Source: a phage. From it: 64,000 bases of DNA. The notes beneath the pieces were generated by a model that ran no database searches, was not told the DNA's origin, and worked only from the letters and a program-made list of their open reading frames with translations. The stretch lies in the sequence record PZ379176.1; one strand, written 5' to 3'. Positions 453 to 30,013 of this stretch are shown piece by piece (the first letter of the stretch is position 1; the number at the start of each line of letters is the position of its first letter). The position numbers and the translations under genes are program-made.

Positions 453-752
453 ATGAGTTGGGGTGGTGTAATATCCTTAATCTGTATCTTCCTTGTCTGC
501 ATAGCCCTTACAGGCTGCGTACAGAGCCGTCCTGATGGATGGTGTGCAGTAGCAGTGGAAGGTGTTTGTGTTTCTCGCTGGTATAAGGGTGAGAAGATTC
601 CTTCTGGTGAAATTGATATGCGATGGAACGGAGCAACCTGTTCTAATGCTAACCCTTCTATCAACGAAGAGAAGTCTACGCCAGACAATGTTGTGATTGA
701 TACAGCGTTGTGGTGTGGTGGCTCTGTAACAACAACCGGTAAGGAGTGGTGA
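453..752 (+). CDS. predicted secreted lipoprotein (signal peptide with lipobox LTGC), Cys-rich
   Basis: AGGAGG RBS at 441-446, ATG 453; hydrophobic N-terminus followed by L-T-G-C lipobox; six further Cys. Confidence 0.6.
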   Translation: MSWGGVISLICIFLVCIALTGCVQSRPDGWCAVAVEGVCVSRWYKGEKIPSGEIDMRWNGATCSNANPSINEEKSTPDNVVIDTALWCGGSVTTTGKEW

Positions 753-960: not shown

Positions 961-1182
961 ATGAAACTAGACTCTAAGCAGTCACTTAAAACCGTTGAGC
1001 TGTCCACGCTGCCAAACGGAAGTATTTTTGGTCATGATAAACACTTCTGGATTAAAACAGACATCATAGACGATGGATATATCACCTGTGTCAATCTTTG
1101 GAACGGTTCAGTGGATGGTTATCGCCCTAGCGCAAAGGTAGTCCCTCAGCCTGATGCTAAGGCTGTAGGTTTAGTTTACTAA
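961..1182 (+). CDS. hypothetical protein, member of small paralog family (see 2576-3574)
   Basis: N-terminal pattern K..TV.LS.LP.G..F shared with the four tandem ORFs at 2576-3574. Confidence 0.5.
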   Translation: MKLDSKQSLKTVELSTLPNGSIFGHDKHFWIKTDIIDDGYITCVNLWNGSVDGYRPSAKVVPQPDAKAVGLVY

Positions 1183-1191
1183 GGAGTTCAT

Positions 1192-1365
1192 ATGAGCTGT
1201 TATGGTGGCGGTGAAGTGTGTGATGACGACGACATGGAATCCAATGGTACATGCCCTGACTGTGGGTGTGAGACATTTGATGGAGTGTCAGTATACCCTG
1301 CCTGTAGTTACTCACCAGTGATCTGTAAAACATGTGGAGATCAACCTTGTGACCAGTCTTGTTAG
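1192..1365 (+). CDS. small Cys-rich (zinc-ribbon-like) protein, 57 aa, not in ORF track
   Basis: AAGGAG RBS then ATG 1192; translation contains CPDCGC and CKTCGDQPCDQSC; stop TAG 1363-1365. Confidence 0.4.
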   Translation: MSCYGGGEVCDDDDMESNGTCPDCGCETFDGVSVYPACSYSPVICKTCGDQPCDQSC

Positions 1366-1722: not shown

Positions 1723-2255
1723 TATCGTGAAGGATTCTTACGAGAGTCCTTTGAGATAGGACTTCAGATCTCCTATCAAACTAACATTCATGTAACTAGC
1801 CCATAAGGGCGTTACCCTTTAATAACCCAGCCCACTAAGGGGGCGGGAGTTTAGTGCTGGATTAGCATAACGCTTATTCCTACAAAGGCAACCGATTGTT
1901 AGGTCTTACATGCAATATTAATTAATAGGATAAGGGAGGATTCGTCCCCTCCCCTATTCATAAACTATTAGGAGAGTACATTAGCTGATTAGCTGTGGAA
2001 GGTAGGCCGATATCTACAGCGTGGCCCAGAGCTAGTGTACTCCCCAATAACTTTAGGGTAAATGTGGAACAACCTTTTAATTACAGGTATAGCTTATGGG
2101 ACTCAGTAATGCAGAGTCTACGGTAAAGCAGTCGCCCGTGGTCGAATGACCGTATGCCCATTGGATGCATTCCTTTGGTGATGGCTAGGGAGTCCGAGCG
2201 TAGGTTCGAATCCTACACCTGTAACCAAATTGAATAATAGCTAATTGGAGGATGT
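1723..2255 (+). ncRNA. 530-bp ORF-free structured region ending in a tRNA-like 3' end (T-arm GTAGG-TTCGAAT-CCTAC, acceptor ACCTGTA, discriminator A, CCA at 2225-2227); candidate unusual or interrupted tRNA, or other structured RNA
   Basis: No ORF of 60 aa or more; perfect 7-nt acceptor complement TACAGGT at 2082-2088; hairpins at 1755-1777 and 1933-1952; no canonical cloverleaf found by hand. Confidence 0.3.
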
Positions 2256-2567
2256 ATGAAAGCACGAAGAACTATATGGACTCCGATGCAGATTGAAAAT
2301 CTTCGGAGACTAATCAAAGAGTACTCGGTTCAAGAAGTTGCTCAGATTATGAATGTAACGGAGAATGCAGTTAACGCAGCTTGTACTAAATTCGGAATAT
2401 CAAGAGCTTCAATCCGAGTTAAATGGTCTGAAGAAGAAGACCAGTTCCTTATCCGTAATGCTGGGTTCATGTCTATTCAGAGAATGGCTGACATGCTCGG
2501 TAGAAGTTATGCTGCTGTACAGAACAGAGCATGTATGCACCTTAACATTAGCCTCAAACTTAAATAG
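2256..2567 (+). CDS. putative DNA-binding regulator with two tandem helix-turn-helix-like repeats
   Basis: GGAGG RBS; repeated segments SVQEVAQIMNVTENAVNAA and MSIQRMADMLGRSYAAVQNRA. Confidence 0.5.
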   Translation: MKARRTIWTPMQIENLRRLIKEYSVQEVAQIMNVTENAVNAACTKFGISRASIRVKWSEEEDQFLIRNAGFMSIQRMADMLGRSYAAVQNRACMHLNISLKLK

Positions 2568-2575
2568 GAATCAAT

Positions 2576-2830
2576 ATGAAAGTTAACGAATTGAACAAAA
2601 CTATCAAGACTGTGAAACTCCACACTCTGAAGAAGGGCGATACCTTCCGGCTGGAAGAGAACGGTCCAATTCATATGGTCTGTACTGCGGCATCTACTAA
2701 TTGGGTAGAAGTTGCACGAGATCGAGTCGTGTGTGTCAGACTGGAAGATGGACACTTAAGTGGCCCCGTTGAGGGCATCTCTGTTATTCCTGTTAAGGTT
2801 GAAGCTAACGTTATTAAGGATTCTAAATGA
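2576..2830 (+). CDS. hypothetical protein, tandem paralog 1 of 4
   Basis: Four consecutive 81-84 aa ORFs with overlapping stop/start codons and a shared N-terminal pattern. Confidence 0.55.
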   Translation: MKVNELNKTIKTVKLHTLKKGDTFRLEENGPIHMVCTAASTNWVEVARDRVVCVRLEDGHLSGPVEGISVIPVKVEANVIKDSK

Positions 2831-3078
2831 AGATTACCCACAAGAAAGAAGAAGTGACCACGATTGATCTCAACTCCCTCCCCAGCGGAGCAGTGTTTAA
2901 ATTCCCTGAGAGTGCTACTCTCTATGTTAAAGGGTCTGTGTCTGAAAGTCCTAATGTAACCGTTAACTCTGATCGAACAATTACTCTTCGTCTATCCGAT
3001 GGTAACGTAACAGCACCTTCTATCTGGTGCCGAGTTGTTCCTGTATCAGCAGAACTTTTGGTGGATAATACGCAATGA
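2827..3078 (+). CDS. hypothetical protein, tandem paralog 2 of 4
   Basis: As above; ATGA stop/start overlap. Confidence 0.55.
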   Translation: MKITHKKEEVTTIDLNSLPSGAVFKFPESATLYVKGSVSESPNVTVNSDRTITLRLSDGNVTAPSIWCRVVPVSAELLVDNTQ

Positions 3079-3320
3079 AAATCATCCCAAAGAAAAAGGA
3101 TAATACGGTACGATTGGAAACAATCATTCCCGGAAACCCTTTCGTGGTTCAGAACGGAAGTGCCTCTCCTCAGTATTACATGAGGGTTGAAAATGCTTCT
3201 GGTAACATCCGTATAGCCAGTGGTTGGGTTCCTGTGGTAAACCTTTCCACAGGTGTGTTATCTGTTAAAGGTCTTGATGATCAGGTAGAAATGATTCGTA
3301 TGTCAGTGGTTCAGGAGTAG
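3075..3320 (+). CDS. hypothetical protein, tandem paralog 3 of 4
   Basis: As above. Confidence 0.55.
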   Translation: MKIIPKKKDNTVRLETIIPGNPFVVQNGSASPQYYMRVENASGNIRIASGWVPVVNLSTGVLSVKGLDDQVEMIRMSVVQE

Positions 3321-3574
3321 TGCATATGAGCATTATTAACATTAAAGTTAAAGACAAAGAGGAAAAAATCCTCCGCGTCAGAGATCTAAATATGTCAGAT
3401 GTGTTCACTCTCCAAGAGTGCCAAAATCAAAAGGTTTATATGATGACAGCTAAAAGCAGGGGTTGTCAACCTGCTGGAGCTGTTAACCTAGGCACTGGAG
3501 AACTACGTGTCATCTCTGGTGATATGGTTGTTGGTGAGAAGTTTATTAAGGCTGAAATCATCTTAACTTCGTAG
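3320..3574 (+). CDS. hypothetical protein, tandem paralog 4 of 4 (more diverged)
   Basis: As above. Confidence 0.5.
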   Translation: MHMSIINIKVKDKEEKILRVRDLNMSDVFTLQECQNQKVYMMTAKSRGCQPAGAVNLGTGELRVISGDMVVGEKFIKAEIILTS

Positions 3575-3806
3575 GGAAAACAAATGAGACGTAAAGCATA
3601 TTCTTATGACGATATGATTAACCAGAAAGGCTTCGGTCAACGACAGCCTGACGGTTCAATTATCTGGTTCGTAAACGGACAGAAAAAGGTAGCTAAATAA
3701 GCCCTCTTCTCTCCTCCTTTTAGTACTATGACGCCTCTCTGTGGGCGGCCCGATTTGCGTAGGGAATTCCCTCTACGCAGCCATAATTTTTTAAGGAATT
3801 TCCCCT

Positions 3807-8009: not shown

Positions 8010-8627
8010 GTGAGCTTAGTAGCTGATTTTTCTCATTACTATAATGGTACATGGATTGCTAAACGAGCAGGCAATATCAACCTTCCGTGTTTTGTGATTG
8101 GTGTTGAGCAGAGCGGTAACTTCCGCAGCGATGACTTCTCGCATGAAGCAGAACAGGCTCTGTATTTTGTTGTAGAGCAGTGGTACAAGAACGAGCATGG
8201 GAATCTCCGAAACACTACGATGAATATTCCAGTGTTCGACCCAACCTTGATTCTTGAATCACCTGATGTTGGTTATCTGTTCCATAACGGTAACACTGTA
8301 AGCTGGACTCATATCAACCCTGTTCGTCAGAGAGCGAAGGGTTTGATGGGTAACAAGATTCGAAACGCTCCGGGAATTGGTCGTTCGATCTCTGGTGAAA
8401 TGGTTTACAGTCTGTTCAATCCTGAATTTGATGGATTGGTTACTCGTTATATTTACATCAATCCTACAGATGGTAAAGTGCATTATAAAGGTGCACTGGT
8501 AGGTCAGGTAGATCTGGAAGCACCTCGTGACTCTTATGGTCAACAACCGATGCGACTTCTGGAGCATTTTCATCACATCTCTGAAAACCTTAGCAATTAT
8601 AATATTACGTTGGTGGATTCGTTATGA
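8010..8627 (+). CDS. hypothetical protein (205 aa), cluster member
   Basis: ORF track. Confidence 0.5.
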   Translation: MSLVADFSHYYNGTWIAKRAGNINLPCFVIGVEQSGNFRSDDFSHEAEQALYFVVEQWYKNEHGNLRNTTMNIPVFDPTLILESPDVGYLFHNGNTVSWTHINPVRQRAKGLMGNKIRNAPGIGRSISGEMVYSLFNPEFDGLVTRYIYINPTDGKVHYKGALVGQVDLEAPRDSYGQQPMRLLEHFHHISENLSNYNITLVDSL

Positions 8628-18817: not shown

Positions 18818-19015
18818 ATGAAAAAGTGGATTGTTCGTGTACATGATAACACGACTGGAGAGTTAGTAGCTGTAGATTTTGTTAAGACTCGAGAGCACGC
18901 ACGTAGGGTCAAAAATCAATACAAGTCTACTTTTAGACTTAATAAGGTTACACTAGGAAAAGCTATCGTGAATAGTGAAGGTGCTTTTTGTGTCAACAGT
19001 AAGGTTTATTACTAA
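18818..19015 (+). CDS. hypothetical protein, tandem paralog 1 of 3
   Basis: Three consecutive 65-69 aa ORFs with ATGA overlaps and shared C-terminal K-V-x-Y-Y pattern. Confidence 0.5.
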   Translation: MKKWIVRVHDNTTGELVAVDFVKTREHARRVKNQYKSTFRLNKVTLGKAIVNSEGAFCVNSKVYY

Positions 19016-19224
19016 TGAGACCAATCACTATGAGAAAATTCTGGTTAGCGAAGATTAAGTGGGCATCAGGTGGTATGACTATGACTGCACTCCCTACTCG
19101 TCAACAAGCTCGAGATTTTAAAAAGACTATGCTTACTGGTGACGTGGTTAATAGTATCAGCATCCATAAGGCCAAGGAGTATTCTTCTGGTCGTGTTTAT
19201 ATCAGCGGAAAGGTACATTACTAA
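19015..19224 (+). CDS. hypothetical protein, tandem paralog 2 of 3
   Basis: As above. Confidence 0.5.
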   Translation: MRPITMRKFWLAKIKWASGGMTMTALPTRQQARDFKKTMLTGDVVNSISIHKAKEYSSGRVYISGKVHY

Positions 19225-19433
19225 TGAAAAAGATGTGGGCTATTCATGTTGTTTGGGATCTTGAGCAACACATGAGAAAAGATAACATCAAATTGTTTGA
19301 CACTCGCAAAGAGGCTCGTATTGCTAAGAAACAGTTGAAGACTCTGGGCACAATAGTAAAAAGCGCTGACATACATCGCTGGTATGAAGACCCTAACACT
19401 GGTTCTTTTATGTCTAAAGTAATTTACTACTGA
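19224..19433 (+). CDS. hypothetical protein, tandem paralog 3 of 3
   Basis: As above. Confidence 0.5.
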   Translation: MKKMWAIHVVWDLEQHMRKDNIKLFDTRKEARIAKKQLKTLGTIVKSADIHRWYEDPNTGSFMSKVIYY

Positions 19434-19505
19434 TTGGTAGTAGATATGATAACTCTCAAATGTATATAGAGTACAATAAGAATTTGTATTTTACAGGAGA
19501 GAGTT

Positions 19506-23577: not shown

Positions 23578-23586
23578 TAATGTATA
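23578..23586 (+). promoter_or_regulatory. TAATGTATA motif about 37 nt upstream of gene 23623; candidate phage-sigma promoter element
   Basis: Exact 9-mer; the same 9-mer recurs upstream of other genes on both strands. Confidence 0.4.
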
Positions 23587-23622: not shown

Positions 23623-23937
23623 ATGGCAGATCATGTAGGAAAGAGAGATTATGCACAAGAAAGACGTACCGCAATTGCCCGTGGTGAAACAGGCGTTGGG
23701 AGCAAGAGCGGAGATGCTCAGCGCCACCGTGCACGTCGCATCGTTGAAAAGCGCGATGGAAAAGCTGCTGTCAGAGGTAAAGACGTTGGACACAAACGAG
23801 CTGTCAAGTCTGGAGGCTCTAATGCGTCAAGCAACTTACGTGTTGAATCAGTCAGCTCAAACCGTTCAAACGGCGGCAAAAGTGGTGATCGAGCTGGAAA
23901 AGCAGCTGGAGCACGCAAAGGAGCTTTAAGCTCATAA
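23623..23937 (+). CDS. small basic Lys/Arg/Gly-rich protein
   Basis: Strong AAGGAG RBS 7 nt upstream of ATG 23623; preferred over overlapping track ORF 23651..23929. Confidence 0.4.
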   Translation: MADHVGKRDYAQERRTAIARGETGVGSKSGDAQRHRARRIVEKRDGKAAVRGKDVGHKRAVKSGGSNASSNLRVESVSSNRSNGGKSGDRAGKAAGARKGALSS

Positions 23938-24310: not shown

Positions 24311-24565
24311 ATGTCTATTGTAAAAATCGTAAATATCATTGATGTAACTCGTACCGGTAAAACTATCAGTTGGAAATTCACCAATAAGCATAGAGGTTCA
24401 GAGAACATCATTCGTTCTATGATTCAACAAAACCCAAATACAGCTCGCACTAACGTACTCCTTCGAGGAGCTGATGGAAAATTTATCTCTTATAAGAATA
24501 AGAACGTAGAAAAATCTTTCCGTGTTGCAGTAGAAAATCTCATCCCATTCCCTAAAGGAGTTTAA
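24311..24565 (+). CDS. hypothetical protein, tandem paralog 1 of 2
   Basis: Shares GKFISY...PFP(K/R)G C-terminal pattern with next ORF. Confidence 0.5.
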   Translation: MSIVKIVNIIDVTRTGKTISWKFTNKHRGSENIIRSMIQQNPNTARTNVLLRGADGKFISYKNKNVEKSFRVAVENLIPFPKGV

Positions 24566-24566
24566 T

Positions 24567-24851
24567 ATGAATAAGTTAGCTATGGTTCAAATTCGGGACA
24601 CATACCCTAACCGCCCGGAGCAGAAACCGCGTACTTGGTCTTATCTGTTAGCTGAAAGTAAGACTATTGACAAATACGCTGTAGGGATTGATGCTATTCC
24701 AACTAGTATCACATTGCTCCCTCACAAAACAGCCAGAACCCATGTGATGTTACGTGATAGCAAAGGTAAGTTTATCTCTTATCGTGATTCACGAATCAAT
24801 AATGAGATTAAATCTGCTATGGAATTTTTGATGCCATTCCCAAGAGGTTGA
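24567..24851 (+). CDS. hypothetical protein, tandem paralog 2 of 2
   Basis: As above. Confidence 0.5.
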   Translation: MNKLAMVQIRDTYPNRPEQKPRTWSYLLAESKTIDKYAVGIDAIPTSITLLPHKTARTHVMLRDSKGKFISYRDSRINNEIKSAMEFLMPFPRG

Positions 24852-29597: not shown

Positions 29598-30013
29598 CTT
29601 ATATCCTTTACTTTTTAGCTTTCTTAGGAATAATCTTTTTATCTATTATTCTTGAATTTGGTTTAAGTAGGTTAGTTAATTATTTAGGTAATAAGTAATT
29701 AATATTCTTTTAAATAGAGAATCAAAGTCCCTAGGAGTCCCTACAACCTAAATCAAGGATTCCTTAATTCTCTATTTTTATCTCGCAGGTGGCTCCTGCC
29801 CTTCGGTACTTGCAAGGGATTCTGTGAATTGCCCAATATACAAGCCTGCAATAACTTTATCAGCTATACAATATATACATTACTAGTGTGTTATATCTAC
29901 TACCAAAGATACTTATATTATATAGTACTCTTATCGGTATAAGCGTAATGTATACTATACATAACCGCTCAAAGAGAGCAACAATCTTTCAAATTAAATA
30001 AGGAAATTAAAAT
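29598..30013 (+). promoter_or_regulatory. 416-bp AT-rich ORF-poor region upstream of the SSB-like gene with inverted and direct repeats and TAATGTATA motif copies on both strands; candidate promoter hub and/or replication origin
   Basis: AAATAGAGAAT (29712-29722) / ATTCTCTATTT (29767-29777) inverted repeat flanking two GTCCCTA direct repeats; TAATGTATA at 29946-29954 (+) and 29874-29882 (- strand reading). Confidence 0.45.

What the first reader, a model, noticed from the sequence alone, without database searches (positions are those of the whole stretch)
2576..3574. Tandem arrays of small paralogous early genes (four copies here, three at 18818-19433, two at 24311-24851)
Each array consists of 65-85 aa ORFs with overlapping stop/start codons and shared sequence patterns but substantial divergence. 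An extra member of the first family sits at 961-1182. Arrays of diversifying small early proteins in lytic phages are typical of host-takeover or anti-defence factors evolving under an arms race.
Basis: partly seen in the sequence, partly recalled or inferred. Interest (0 to 1): 0.5.

Follow-up and report, generated by a model that had tools for sequence, protein, structure and literature searches.

The report
Three small paralogue arrays in a kuravirus
A phiEco32-like E. coli phage carries three real but mutually unrelated clusters of duplicated small genes; the largest belongs to a widespread, uncharacterised family of small SH3-like proteins that includes phage N4 gp21, and no function is known for any of them.

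Summary
The window is a Kuravirus (98.7% identical to Escherichia phage SkaterBoy_Bas90).

- Family A has five members: 961-1182 plus four in tandem at 2576-3574.
- Family B has three members at 18818-19433.
- Family C has two members at 24311-24851.
- The three families are unrelated to one another, and the window holds no further members.

Family A is part of a much larger family: about 298 cluster representatives and 10 PHROGs, all of unknown function. N4 gp21 is a sequence-level member. The predicted fold is a small SH3-like beta-barrel. Only hydrophobic and glycine positions are conserved, and one loop is hypervariable.

Across Gordonclarkvirinae the array between the D5-like regulator and a 38-aa gene holds 1 to 5 copies, with allele swaps between conserved flanks. 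Gene-wide dN/dS is below 1 in every comparison. An unrelated 61-kb metagenomic contig carries 16 domains of the family in tandem.

Families B and C are very basic (pI about 10). C lies behind a phage-sigma (gp36-type) promoter motif and is a middle gene pair, not early.

Accessory status and cassette turnover are shown. Positive selection and any anti-defence role are not. Bas94 has one array copy and still resists all six tested restriction-modification (RM) systems. This is an ordinary kind of feature with a modestly new family-level insight.

The parts
961..1182 (+). A0: solitary member of family A (73 aa; phrog_6570; ortholog of phiEco32 gp104)
   Evidence: ORF. PHROG hit 7.9e-32 with cross-hits to phrog_7832 and phrog_16423. 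hhalign to A1 at 9e-7 and to A2 at 7e-6. E 6e-15 against the distant-relative HMM. dN/dS about 0.05-0.4 against orthologs.
2576..2830 (+). A1: first gene of the A array (84 aa; phrog_7832), starting 9 nt after the D5-like regulator gene
   Evidence: A1-A2 blastp 1.4e-10 and z=18 against shuffles. E 9e-22 against the distant-relative HMM.
2827..3078 (+). A2: second array gene (83 aa; phrog_7832; ortholog of phiEco32 gp97); ATGA overlap with A1
3075..3320 (+). A3: third array gene (81 aa; phrog_7431; ortholog of phiEco32 gp96); ATGA overlap with A2
   Evidence: hhalign to A0 at 4e-5, A1 at 2e-4 and A2 at 3.5e-4. E 1.3e-17. This is the only array type retained in Bas94.
3326..3574 (+). A4: fourth and most divergent array gene (82 aa from ATG 3326; phrog_12612; ortholog of phiEco32 gp95).
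   Evidence: PHROG cross-hits to phrog_7431 (1.5e-4), phrog_6570 and phrog_8365. E 1.4e-12 against the distant-relative HMM. Pairwise similarity alone is not significant.
18818..19015 (+). B1 (65 aa; phrog_4939; phiEco32 gp71), starting directly after the dCTP deaminase stop codon
   Evidence: pI 10.1.
19015..19224 (+). B2 (69 aa; phrog_4939; phiEco32 gp70)
19224..19433 (+). B3 (69 aa; phrog_4939; phiEco32 gp69); last gene before the gene-68 promoter motif
   Evidence: AAATGTATA at 19458-19466 lies in the 72-nt spacer downstream.
19458..19466 (+). gp36-type (phage sigma) promoter-like motif AAATGTATA between B3 and the gene-68 equivalent
   Evidence: Consensus tAATGTAtA and the promoter in front of phiEco32 gene 68 come from PMC8948821. 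The 9-mer is not enriched window-wide, so the assignment rests on position and synteny.
23578..23586 (+). Exact TAATGTATA motif in front of the gene-58 equivalent (ORF 23623-23937), upstream of the C pair
24311..24565 (+). C1 (84 aa; phrog_6814; phiEco32 gp57, SU10 gp054)
   Evidence: pI 10.8.
24567..24851 (+). C2 (94 aa; phrog_6814; phiEco32 gp56, SU10 gp053)
   Evidence: C1-C2 blastp 3e-12 and z=20. Absent from EP335.
2256..2567 (+). D5-like transcriptional regulator gene (103 aa); conserved upstream boundary of the A array in Kuravirus and Nieuwekanaalvirus genomes
3584..3700 (+). 38-aa gene (phiEco32 gp94); conserved downstream boundary of the A array
   Evidence: It is 82-100% identical across genomes in which array alleles differ by up to 50%.

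Best explanation
The three clusters are independent families of dispensable accessory proteins. Each arose by ancient tandem duplication and was since reshuffled by gain, loss and cassette exchange.

Family A (A0 plus the four-gene array) consists of stand-alone, roughly 80-residue SH3-like beta-barrels of the N4-gp21-like family. The barrel core is kept: Gly21, Phe24, Tyr33/Met34, Val54, Leu56, Gly59, Val70, Pro72. The loop between residues about 37 and 50 varies freely in length and sequence.

I infer that these proteins act stoichiometrically as binding modules, not as enzymes, and are made soon after infection. I also infer that each paralogue recognises a different partner, most likely a host protein, for host takeover or counter-defence. 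No single copy appears to be essential.

Families B and C are unrelated to A. They are strongly basic small proteins embedded in the nucleotide-metabolism and replication block. B follows the dCTP deaminase and nucleotidyltransferase genes. C precedes the DNA polymerase gene. They more likely bind nucleic acid or replication proteins.

Shown: the paralogy, the predicted fold, the family breadth, the copy-number and allele variation, and purifying selection. Inferred: timing, binding function and targets.
For: Paralogy and completeness.

Conservation: only hydrophobic and glycine positions are conserved across 128 diverse members, and the 37-50 region is gappy and high-entropy. This is typical of a scaffold with a variable binding surface and gives no sign of a catalytic site.

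Family breadth:
- 298 representatives at E<=1e-3.
- 10 PHROGs of unknown function.
- N4 gp21 at E 7e-18.
- BFVD structural neighbours in Erwinia, Proteus, Serratia, Pseudomonas and Cronobacter phages, among other non-kuravirus hosts.

Propensity to form arrays: 15 ORFs carrying 16 domains in 5.6 kb of an unrelated 61-kb contig, and two-domain fusions.

Accessory status:
- 1 copy (Bas94) to 5 copies (EP335) at one fixed locus.
- A truncated copy in WFI101126 and a degenerate, unannotated stretch at the start of the EcM-vB1 array.
- A0 duplicated in KBNP1711 and EP335, and absent from the stretches of IMEP8 and Bas94 that were examined.

Real, selected genes: dN/dS 0.03-0.35.

Early position of A by synteny with SU10 CDS 96-98 and 102 and phiEco32 gp95-98 and gp104, inside the block called early.

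B and C basic charge: pI 9.8-10.8, net charge +6 to +10. Their neighbours are listed.
Against: - No experiment or named homolog ties any of the ten proteins to a function.
- SH3-like barrels also bind nucleic acids (Sso7d, KOW, Sm), so a protein target is not established. That comparison is from general knowledge.
- Expression timing was not measured for this phage. The literature I could read gives only block-level classes, and it calls gp79, which lies inside the 'early' block, a middle gene product.
- Dispensability is inferred from natural variation, not from knockouts. Other family members elsewhere in those genomes could compensate.
- The basic charge of B and C is the only argument for nucleic-acid binding.
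Confidence: 0.45

Rival explanations
1. This is a narrower version of the reader's idea. The arrays are batteries of anti-defence inhibitors, with each paralogue neutralising a different bacterial immune system. Their diversity is the product of an arms race.
For: - The proteins are small, non-enzymatic and hypervariable in copy number and allele content, at a fixed locus between conserved genes. This is the usual signature of counter-defence loci (general knowledge).
- Gordonclarkvirinae are reported as remarkably resistant to RM systems without any known inhibitor or modification pathway (PMC11990801).
- B lies next to the dCTP deaminase and nucleotidyltransferase genes, which that paper suspects of DNA modification.
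Against: - Bas94 keeps only one A-array copy and no A0 in the locus examined. [quoted passage not shown] A0, A1, A2 and A4 are therefore not needed for those resistances.
- Gene-wide dN/dS is well below 1 in every comparison.
- There is no homology to any named protein.
- N4 carries a single copy in its middle region, not in an anti-defence island.
Confidence: 0.2
2. The proteins serve the phage's own processes rather than acting on the host. Examples would be small nucleic-acid-binding or adaptor subunits for transcription, replication, DNA modification or packaging, with paralogues sub-functionalised.
For: - B and C are highly basic and sit inside the replication and nucleotide-metabolism block, with conserved positions across three genera.
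- The SH3-like/KOW/Tudor folds that match A include many nucleic-acid and RNA-polymerase binders, for example EF-P, Spt5 KOW, CarD and the UvrD C-terminal domain.
- The A array always follows a predicted transcriptional regulator.
- Purifying selection acts on every lineage.
Against: - Copy number of A ranges from 1 to 5 with wholesale allele replacement. C drops to one copy in EP335 and B to two in SU7. That is hard to reconcile with a fixed role in a conserved machine.
- A proteins are near neutral (pI 5.7-9.2), unlike Sso7d-type DNA binders.
- No conserved polar surface residues are seen.
Confidence: 0.25
3. The similarity is compositional or the ORFs are not genes, so the 'arrays' are chance runs of short ORFs.
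For: Some pairs are not significant on their own: A0-A4, A2-A4 and B1-B3 (z 1.3-2.1).
Against: - Profile evidence is strong for every member.
- Orthologs are conserved in about 100 phage genomes with dN/dS well below 1.
- The A genes have Shine-Dalgarno sequences, and genes within all three arrays abut or overlap in the manner of translational coupling.
- The AlphaFold2 models are confident.
Confidence: 0.01

Closest known systems
Bacteriophage N4 gp21 (YP_950499, 74 aa) and PHROGs 7832, 6570, 7431, 12612, 8365, 9955, 16423, 34455, 29867, 10911
   Same: Sequence-level family membership. N4 gp21 scores E 7e-18 against the distant-relative HMM and 2.6e-6 against a kuravirus-only HMM. It has the same length and the same G..F / YM / VNL..G / V.PV pattern, and it is a Foldseek neighbour of the A2 model. 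Of 128 diverse members, 122 hit phrog_7832.
   Different: N4 has one copy, in its middle-gene region between a lipoprotein gene and an endonuclease gene. The kuravirus has five, four of them in tandem. None of these proteins or PHROGs has a known function, so the match names the family without explaining it.
SH3-like small beta-barrel domains (uL2 C-terminal domain, DtxR/IdeR C-terminal domain and FeoA, EF-P/KOW, Tudor/PWWP, VapX antitoxin)
Clusters of small host-takeover or counter-defence genes in other virulent phages (SPO1 host-takeover module, T4 and T5 early accessory genes, anti-CRISPR loci); comparison from general knowledge plus the SPO1 abstract listed
   Same: Many short, tightly packed, co-oriented genes near the start of the infection programme. 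Variable content between related phages. Mostly orphan sequences.
   Different: Those clusters are mostly mixtures of unrelated genes. Here each cluster is a true paralogue family. No toxicity, host target or defence inhibition has been shown for the kuravirus genes. The C cluster is not early.

Membership tests
N4-gp21-like small SH3-like phage protein family (PHROGs 7832/6570/7431/12612 and relatives) | Full-length match to a family profile that does not contain the protein's own orthologs | tested here: met
   The HMM built from 123 relatives <40% identical gives A1 9e-22, A3 1.3e-17, A2 8e-17, A0 6e-15 and A4 1.4e-12. The next-best window ORF scores 0.54. Caveat: those relatives were themselves recruited with a profile of the A proteins.
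N4-gp21-like small SH3-like phage protein family | Conserved core positions (G21, F24, L56, G59, V70 in A1/A2 numbering) and a length of 70-90 aa | tested here: met
   F24, L56 and G59 are invariant in the five window proteins. Across 128 diverse members, G21, F24, L56, G59 and V70 are at least 90% conserved. Window protein lengths are 73-84 aa.
N4-gp21-like small SH3-like phage protein family | Small beta-barrel fold | tested here: met
   The model of A2 has pLDDT 86.8 and pTM 0.73. Its neighbours are SH3-like barrels and other family members in BFVD. Only A2 was modelled.
Named SH3-like families (FeoA, DtxR C-terminal domain, KOW, Tudor) | Significant sequence match to the family model | tested here: not met
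   No Pfam hit reaches E<=0.1 for any A protein. The only two listed (Gp5_C, NQRA_SLBB) have E about 0.16-0.17 and fall below their cut-offs. None of the 128 members matches these families. NCBIfam gives nothing and PDB sequences give nothing.
Phage early genes (host sigma-70 transcribed) | Location in the early transcription unit, with no phage-sigma promoter upstream | tested here: inconclusive
   A corresponds to SU10 CDS 96-98 and 102, within the block called early, CDS 69-125. There is no + strand gp36-type motif before position 19458. B is the last gene set of that block, yet gp79, which lies upstream of B, is described as a middle gene product. No expression data exist for this phage.
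Phage early genes (host sigma-70 transcribed) | The same criterion applied to the C pair | tested here: not met
   An exact TAATGTATA motif at 23578 precedes the gene-58 equivalent, and C follows it. SU10 gp053/054 lie in the middle block, CDS 25-68.
Genes under diversifying (positive) selection | dN/dS > 1 between orthologs | tested here: not met
   Nei-Gojobori gene-wide dN/dS is 0.03-0.35 for all A, B and C comparisons that are not saturated. Site-specific tests were not run.
Variable accessory ('cassette') locus | Presence/absence and allele replacement between conserved flanks in related genomes | tested here: met
   The A array has 1, 2, 3, 4 or 5 copies in Bas94, LAMP/KBNP1711, SU10, window/phiEco32/IMEP8 and EP335 respectively. 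DNA coverage falls into bands of 100, 84, 66 and 48%. A4 is 57% identical between the window and WFI101126 while the next two genes are 100% identical.
Known anti-defence proteins | Homology to a characterised inhibitor, or demonstrated inhibition of a defence system | not tested
   No anti-defence profile library was available. Pfam, PHROGs and NCBIfam give no named hit. Indirect evidence against an RM-inhibitor role for A0, A1, A2 and A4 comes from the Bas94 EOP data.

The most novel reading that the evidence does not exclude
Family A would be a previously unrecognised, very widespread superfamily of modular SH3-like inhibitor or adaptor proteins of virulent phages. It runs from N4 gp21 through kuraviruses to uncultured phages carrying 16 tandem copies. 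Duplication plus variation of one loop would generate new host-target specificities, making it a protein-level 'library' for host takeover or counter-defence. It might also account for part of the unexplained defence resistance of Gordonclarkvirinae.
Probability: 0.15. Interest if true: 0.7.

Novelty: new member of a known kind. Interest (0 to 1): 0.35.

Why it matters
Small orphan genes make up much of phage 'dark matter'. This analysis merges ten function-less PHROGs and N4 gp21 into one SH3-like family and shows that the family repeatedly expands in tandem. It also maps which copies come and go among closely related E. coli phages. Together these give a tractable entry point. Bas90 and Bas94 both infect E. 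coli K-12 with restored O-antigen and differ naturally in array content, so knockouts, trans-expression and pull-downs are straightforward. As it stands the finding is descriptive. It does not reveal a mechanism, and arrays of variable small genes in lytic phages are a familiar phenomenon.

Tried and rejected
- Pfam, NCBIfam and PDB-sequence searches of the window proteins and of 128 diverse family members gave no meaningful hit.
- A consensus-sequence tblastn against 50,697 phage records found only kuraviruses, so it was too insensitive.
- The search for related loci with the broad alignment failed because it had no conserved block. With A2 alone it returned just two loci.
- PHROG scans of large neighbours on the metagenomic contigs L004 and L007 gave nothing, so those phages could not be typed.
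- I first counted four B copies in SU10 from its annotation. The HMM shows that the extra gene, gp072, is not a family member. I corrected the count.
- hhalign between families A, B and C found no relationship.
- A search for DNA repeats that could indicate recent duplication found only RBS/start-codon junction similarity.
- Literature searches for paralogy or function of these genes found nothing relevant: phiEco32 with 'paralog', N4 gp21, SH3-like with anti-defence, and tandem paralogs. The two primary phiEco32 papers (PMC2587145, PMC3275717) are not held.

Full report
**Identity of the window.** The first 8 kb match Escherichia phage SkaterBoy_Bas90 at 98.7% identity, and 146 other records also match, mostly Escherichia phages of the phiEco32/SU10 type. 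The region 17-26 kb behaves the same way. The window is therefore a Kuravirus (Gordonclarkvirinae), a virulent C3-morphotype podophage. In Bas90 every ORF of the finding is annotated as 'hypothetical protein'.

**Observation.** All ten ORFs exist on the + strand:
- A0 at 961-1182.
- A1 at 2576-2830, A2 at 2827-3078, A3 at 3075-3320, A4 at 3320/3326-3574.
- B1 at 18818-19015, B2 at 19015-19224, B3 at 19224-19433.
- C1 at 24311-24565, C2 at 24567-24851.

The sequence shows ATGA overlaps at A1/A2 and A2/A3. B1/B2 and B2/B3 have TAATG overlaps. One base separates C1 from C2. C2 is 94 aa, slightly outside the stated 65-85 aa range.

**Is the similarity more than composition?**
- Smith-Waterman scores against 1000 shuffles give z=18 (A1-A2), 20 (C1-C2), 9 (B1-B2 and B2-B3), 6-7 (A0-A1 and A0-A2) and 4.7 (A1-A3).
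- A4 reaches only z 1.3-3.1, and B1-B3 only 2.1.
- The 31 cross-family pairs average z=0.22. blastp agrees.
- B proteins all hit phrog_4939 at about 1e-28. C proteins both hit phrog_6814 at about 1e-37 to 1e-39.
- A proteins sit in phrog_6570, 7832 (A1 and A2), 7431 and 12612, with reciprocal cross-hits.
- A word-indexed search found 117 homologs of the A proteins, and every one is an ortholog (at least 49% identity) of one of the five window genes.
- hhalign between the five ortholog profiles links A0, A1, A2 and A3 at 5e-11 to 3.5e-4. It links A4 to A1 and A3 at about 2e-3.
- An exhaustive HMM search found 298 cluster representatives at E<=1e-3, most of them full-length proteins of 70-90 aa.
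- An HMM built only from the 123 representatives that are <40% identical to any window protein recovers all five A ORFs at 1e-12 to 1e-21. The next window ORF scores E=0.54.
- Six-frame HMM scans find no additional A, B or C members in the 64 kb.
- The three families are unrelated to one another.

No Pfam, NCBIfam or PDB-sequence match exists for the window proteins or for 128 diverse members. Those members spread over ten PHROGs, all labelled 'unknown function'.

Foldseek against viral models finds uncharacterised proteins of other kuraviruses and also of N4, PaP3 and phages of Erwinia, Proteus, Serratia, Pseudomonas and Cronobacter, among other hosts. N4 gp21 (74 aa) is a sequence-level member, at E 7e-18 with the distant-relative HMM and 2.6e-6 with a kuravirus-only HMM. 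It is the only member in the first 20 kb of N4.

Column statistics over 128 members show conservation only at hydrophobic or glycine positions: M1, K2, I3, L15, L18, G21, F24, Y33, M34, V54, L56, G59, V70 and P72. The stretch around residues 37-50 is gappy and high-entropy. This is the pattern of a stable scaffold with a variable surface loop, not of an enzyme. The A proteins are near neutral, with pI 5.7-9.2.

**Arrays elsewhere and turnover.** The family expands in tandem in unrelated genomes. A 61-kb metagenomic contig (L004) carries 15 ORFs with 16 domains in 5.6 kb, nine of them consecutive. A 71-kb kuravirus-like genome (L006) has nine members. Two-domain fusion proteins also occur.

Within Gordonclarkvirinae the array always lies between the D5-like regulator gene and a 38-aa gene. 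Its content differs between genomes:

| Phage | Array content |
|---|---|
| Bas94 | one copy (A3-like) |
| LAMP, KBNP1711 | two copies |
| SU10 | three copies |
| window, Bas90, IMEP8, phiEco32 | four copies (phiEco32's first copy is of a different type) |
| EP335 | five copies |
| WFI101126 | includes a truncated A2 |
| EcM-vB1 | a degenerate, unannotated family-like stretch in the first position |

A0 is tandemly duplicated in KBNP1711 and EP335, and absent from the stretches of IMEP8 and Bas94 that were examined. A DNA search of the array shows coverage bands of 100, 84, 66 and 48% among 98 records.

Ortholog identities are bimodal. A4 is 99-100% identical in phiEco32 and EcM-vB1, 84-86% in SU10 and LAMP, and 51-58% in five other genomes. 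The two downstream genes are 82-100% identical across the same genomes. This indicates cassette exchange.

Nei-Gojobori dN/dS is well below 1 wherever dS is not saturated. Examples are A1-SU10 0.02/0.48, A2-phiEco32 0.05/0.79, A3-WFI101126 0.01/0.26, A4-SU10 0.08/0.50 and A3-SU10 0.26/0.75.

The paralogues share no DNA similarity beyond RBS/start junctions, so the duplications are old.

**Families B and C.** Both are confined to kuravirus-sized contigs in the word-indexed search.
- B (phiEco32 gp71-69) follows the dCTP deaminase gene directly. It has three copies in the window, SU10, phiEco32 and EP335, and two in SU7. SU10's extra small gene there is not a member.
- C (phiEco32 gp57/56, SU10 gp054/053) has two copies, but only one in EP335.
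- Both families diverge much faster than their neighbours. In EP335, B2 is 48% identical and C1 is 71%, against 94-97% for the flanking genes. dN/dS is 0.1-0.35.
- Both are strongly basic, with pI 9.8-10.8 and net charge +6 to +10.

**Timing.** The SU10 paper assigns CDS 69-125 to early genes and CDS 25-68 to middle genes (PMC4281155). The 7-11 paper states that phiEco32 gp36-dependent promoters, consensus tAATGTAtA, lie in front of genes 6, 13, 26, 40, 58 and 68. It also states that gp79 is a middle gene product (PMC8948821).

In the window, AAATGTATA lies at 19458, in the spacer after B3 and in front of the gene-68 equivalent. An exact TAATGTATA lies at 23578, in front of the gene-58 equivalent. 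There is no + strand match upstream of 19458. The motif count is not above chance window-wide, so these assignments rest on position and synteny.

My conclusions on timing are these:
- A is plausibly early. This is inferred, not measured.
- B is the tail of the long early unit and its class is ambiguous.
- C is a middle gene pair.

**Anti-defence?** The BASEL paper reports that Gordonclarkvirinae are remarkably RM-resistant without known inhibitors and are sensitive only to Fun/Z (PMC11990801). That leaves room for unknown counter-defence genes.

[quoted passage not shown] In the locus I examined, Bas94 keeps one A-array copy and no A0. A0, A1, A2 and A4 are therefore not required for those resistances. 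Two caveats apply: only a 5.7-kb stretch of Bas94 was scanned, and the A3-like copy remains. No evidence positively links any of the ten proteins to defence inhibition.

The best explanation (confidence 0.45) is that family A proteins are dispensable SH3-like binding modules acting on host targets, and that B and C are basic accessory proteins of the replication block. The rivals are a phage-internal role (0.25) and dedicated anti-defence batteries (0.2).

The kind of feature is familiar. The modest new points are three: ten PHROGs and N4 gp21 unify into one SH3-like family, the family repeatedly expands in tandem, and cassette turnover is now mapped in E. coli phages that are experimentally tractable.

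Noticed in passing
window 1723-2255 (especially 2134-2229): A 530-nt ORF-poor spacer upstream of the D5-like regulator gene carries a tRNA-like 3' end (GGTTCGAATCCTACACCTGTAACCA). Default ARAGORN calls only tRNA-Arg(tct) at 237-312. At a relaxed threshold it calls a 90-nt 'tRNA-Cys(gca)' at 2134-2223. Rfam finds nothing. It may be a degenerate tRNA or a tRNA-like element.
   Followed up: partly
L004:4832-10418 (ENA ERZ16268292 scaffold_2832, 61 kb): An unrelated metagenomic phage-like contig carries 15 ORFs with 16 domains of family A in 5.6 kb, nine of them consecutive. Its larger neighbouring genes have no PHROG hit.
   Followed up: partly
proteins P0328, P0334, P0341, P0343, P0407: Two-domain fusions of family A (139-156 aa, two full-length profile matches each). 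These suggest that tandem genes are sometimes fused into a single protein.
   Followed up: no
proteins P0300, P0301, P0306, P0320 and others: Several long proteins (470-1858 aa) match the family-A profile in 6-9 short stretches covering only profile positions about 16-50. This could be a repeated beta-hairpin motif or a spurious repeat match. It is unexplained.
   Followed up: no
window 453-752 and 961-1182; L024 (N4) 8256-9379: A family-A member lies just downstream of a lipoprotein gene in N4 (gp20 then gp21) and in kuraviruses (lipoprotein, one small gene, then A0). This may be coincidence.
   Followed up: no
window 1192-1365: A Cys-rich 57-aa ORF lies right after A0, with CPDCGC...CKTCGDQPC, zinc-ribbon-like spacing. 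It is conserved at 91-98% in the nine other Gordonclarkvirinae loci where it was found, with dN/dS below 0.1.
   Followed up: no
window 29865-29964: A cluster of four gp36-type promoter-like motifs (TAATGTATA, exact or one mismatch) sits on both strands within 100 nt. This is consistent with a divergent middle/late promoter region like the one described for phiEco32.
   Followed up: no
L012:3072-3242 (WFI101126 gp103); L020:2809-3120 (EcM-vB1): WFI101126 has a truncated A2 ortholog (56 aa). EcM-vB1 has an unannotated, degenerate family-A-like stretch in the first array position. Array copies appear to decay as well as being swapped.
   Followed up: partly
L002:2076-2282 (SU10 gp072): SU10 has an extra small gene between the dCTP deaminase gene and B1. 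It is not a family-B member by HMM, so this junction is also an insertion hotspot.
   Followed up: partly
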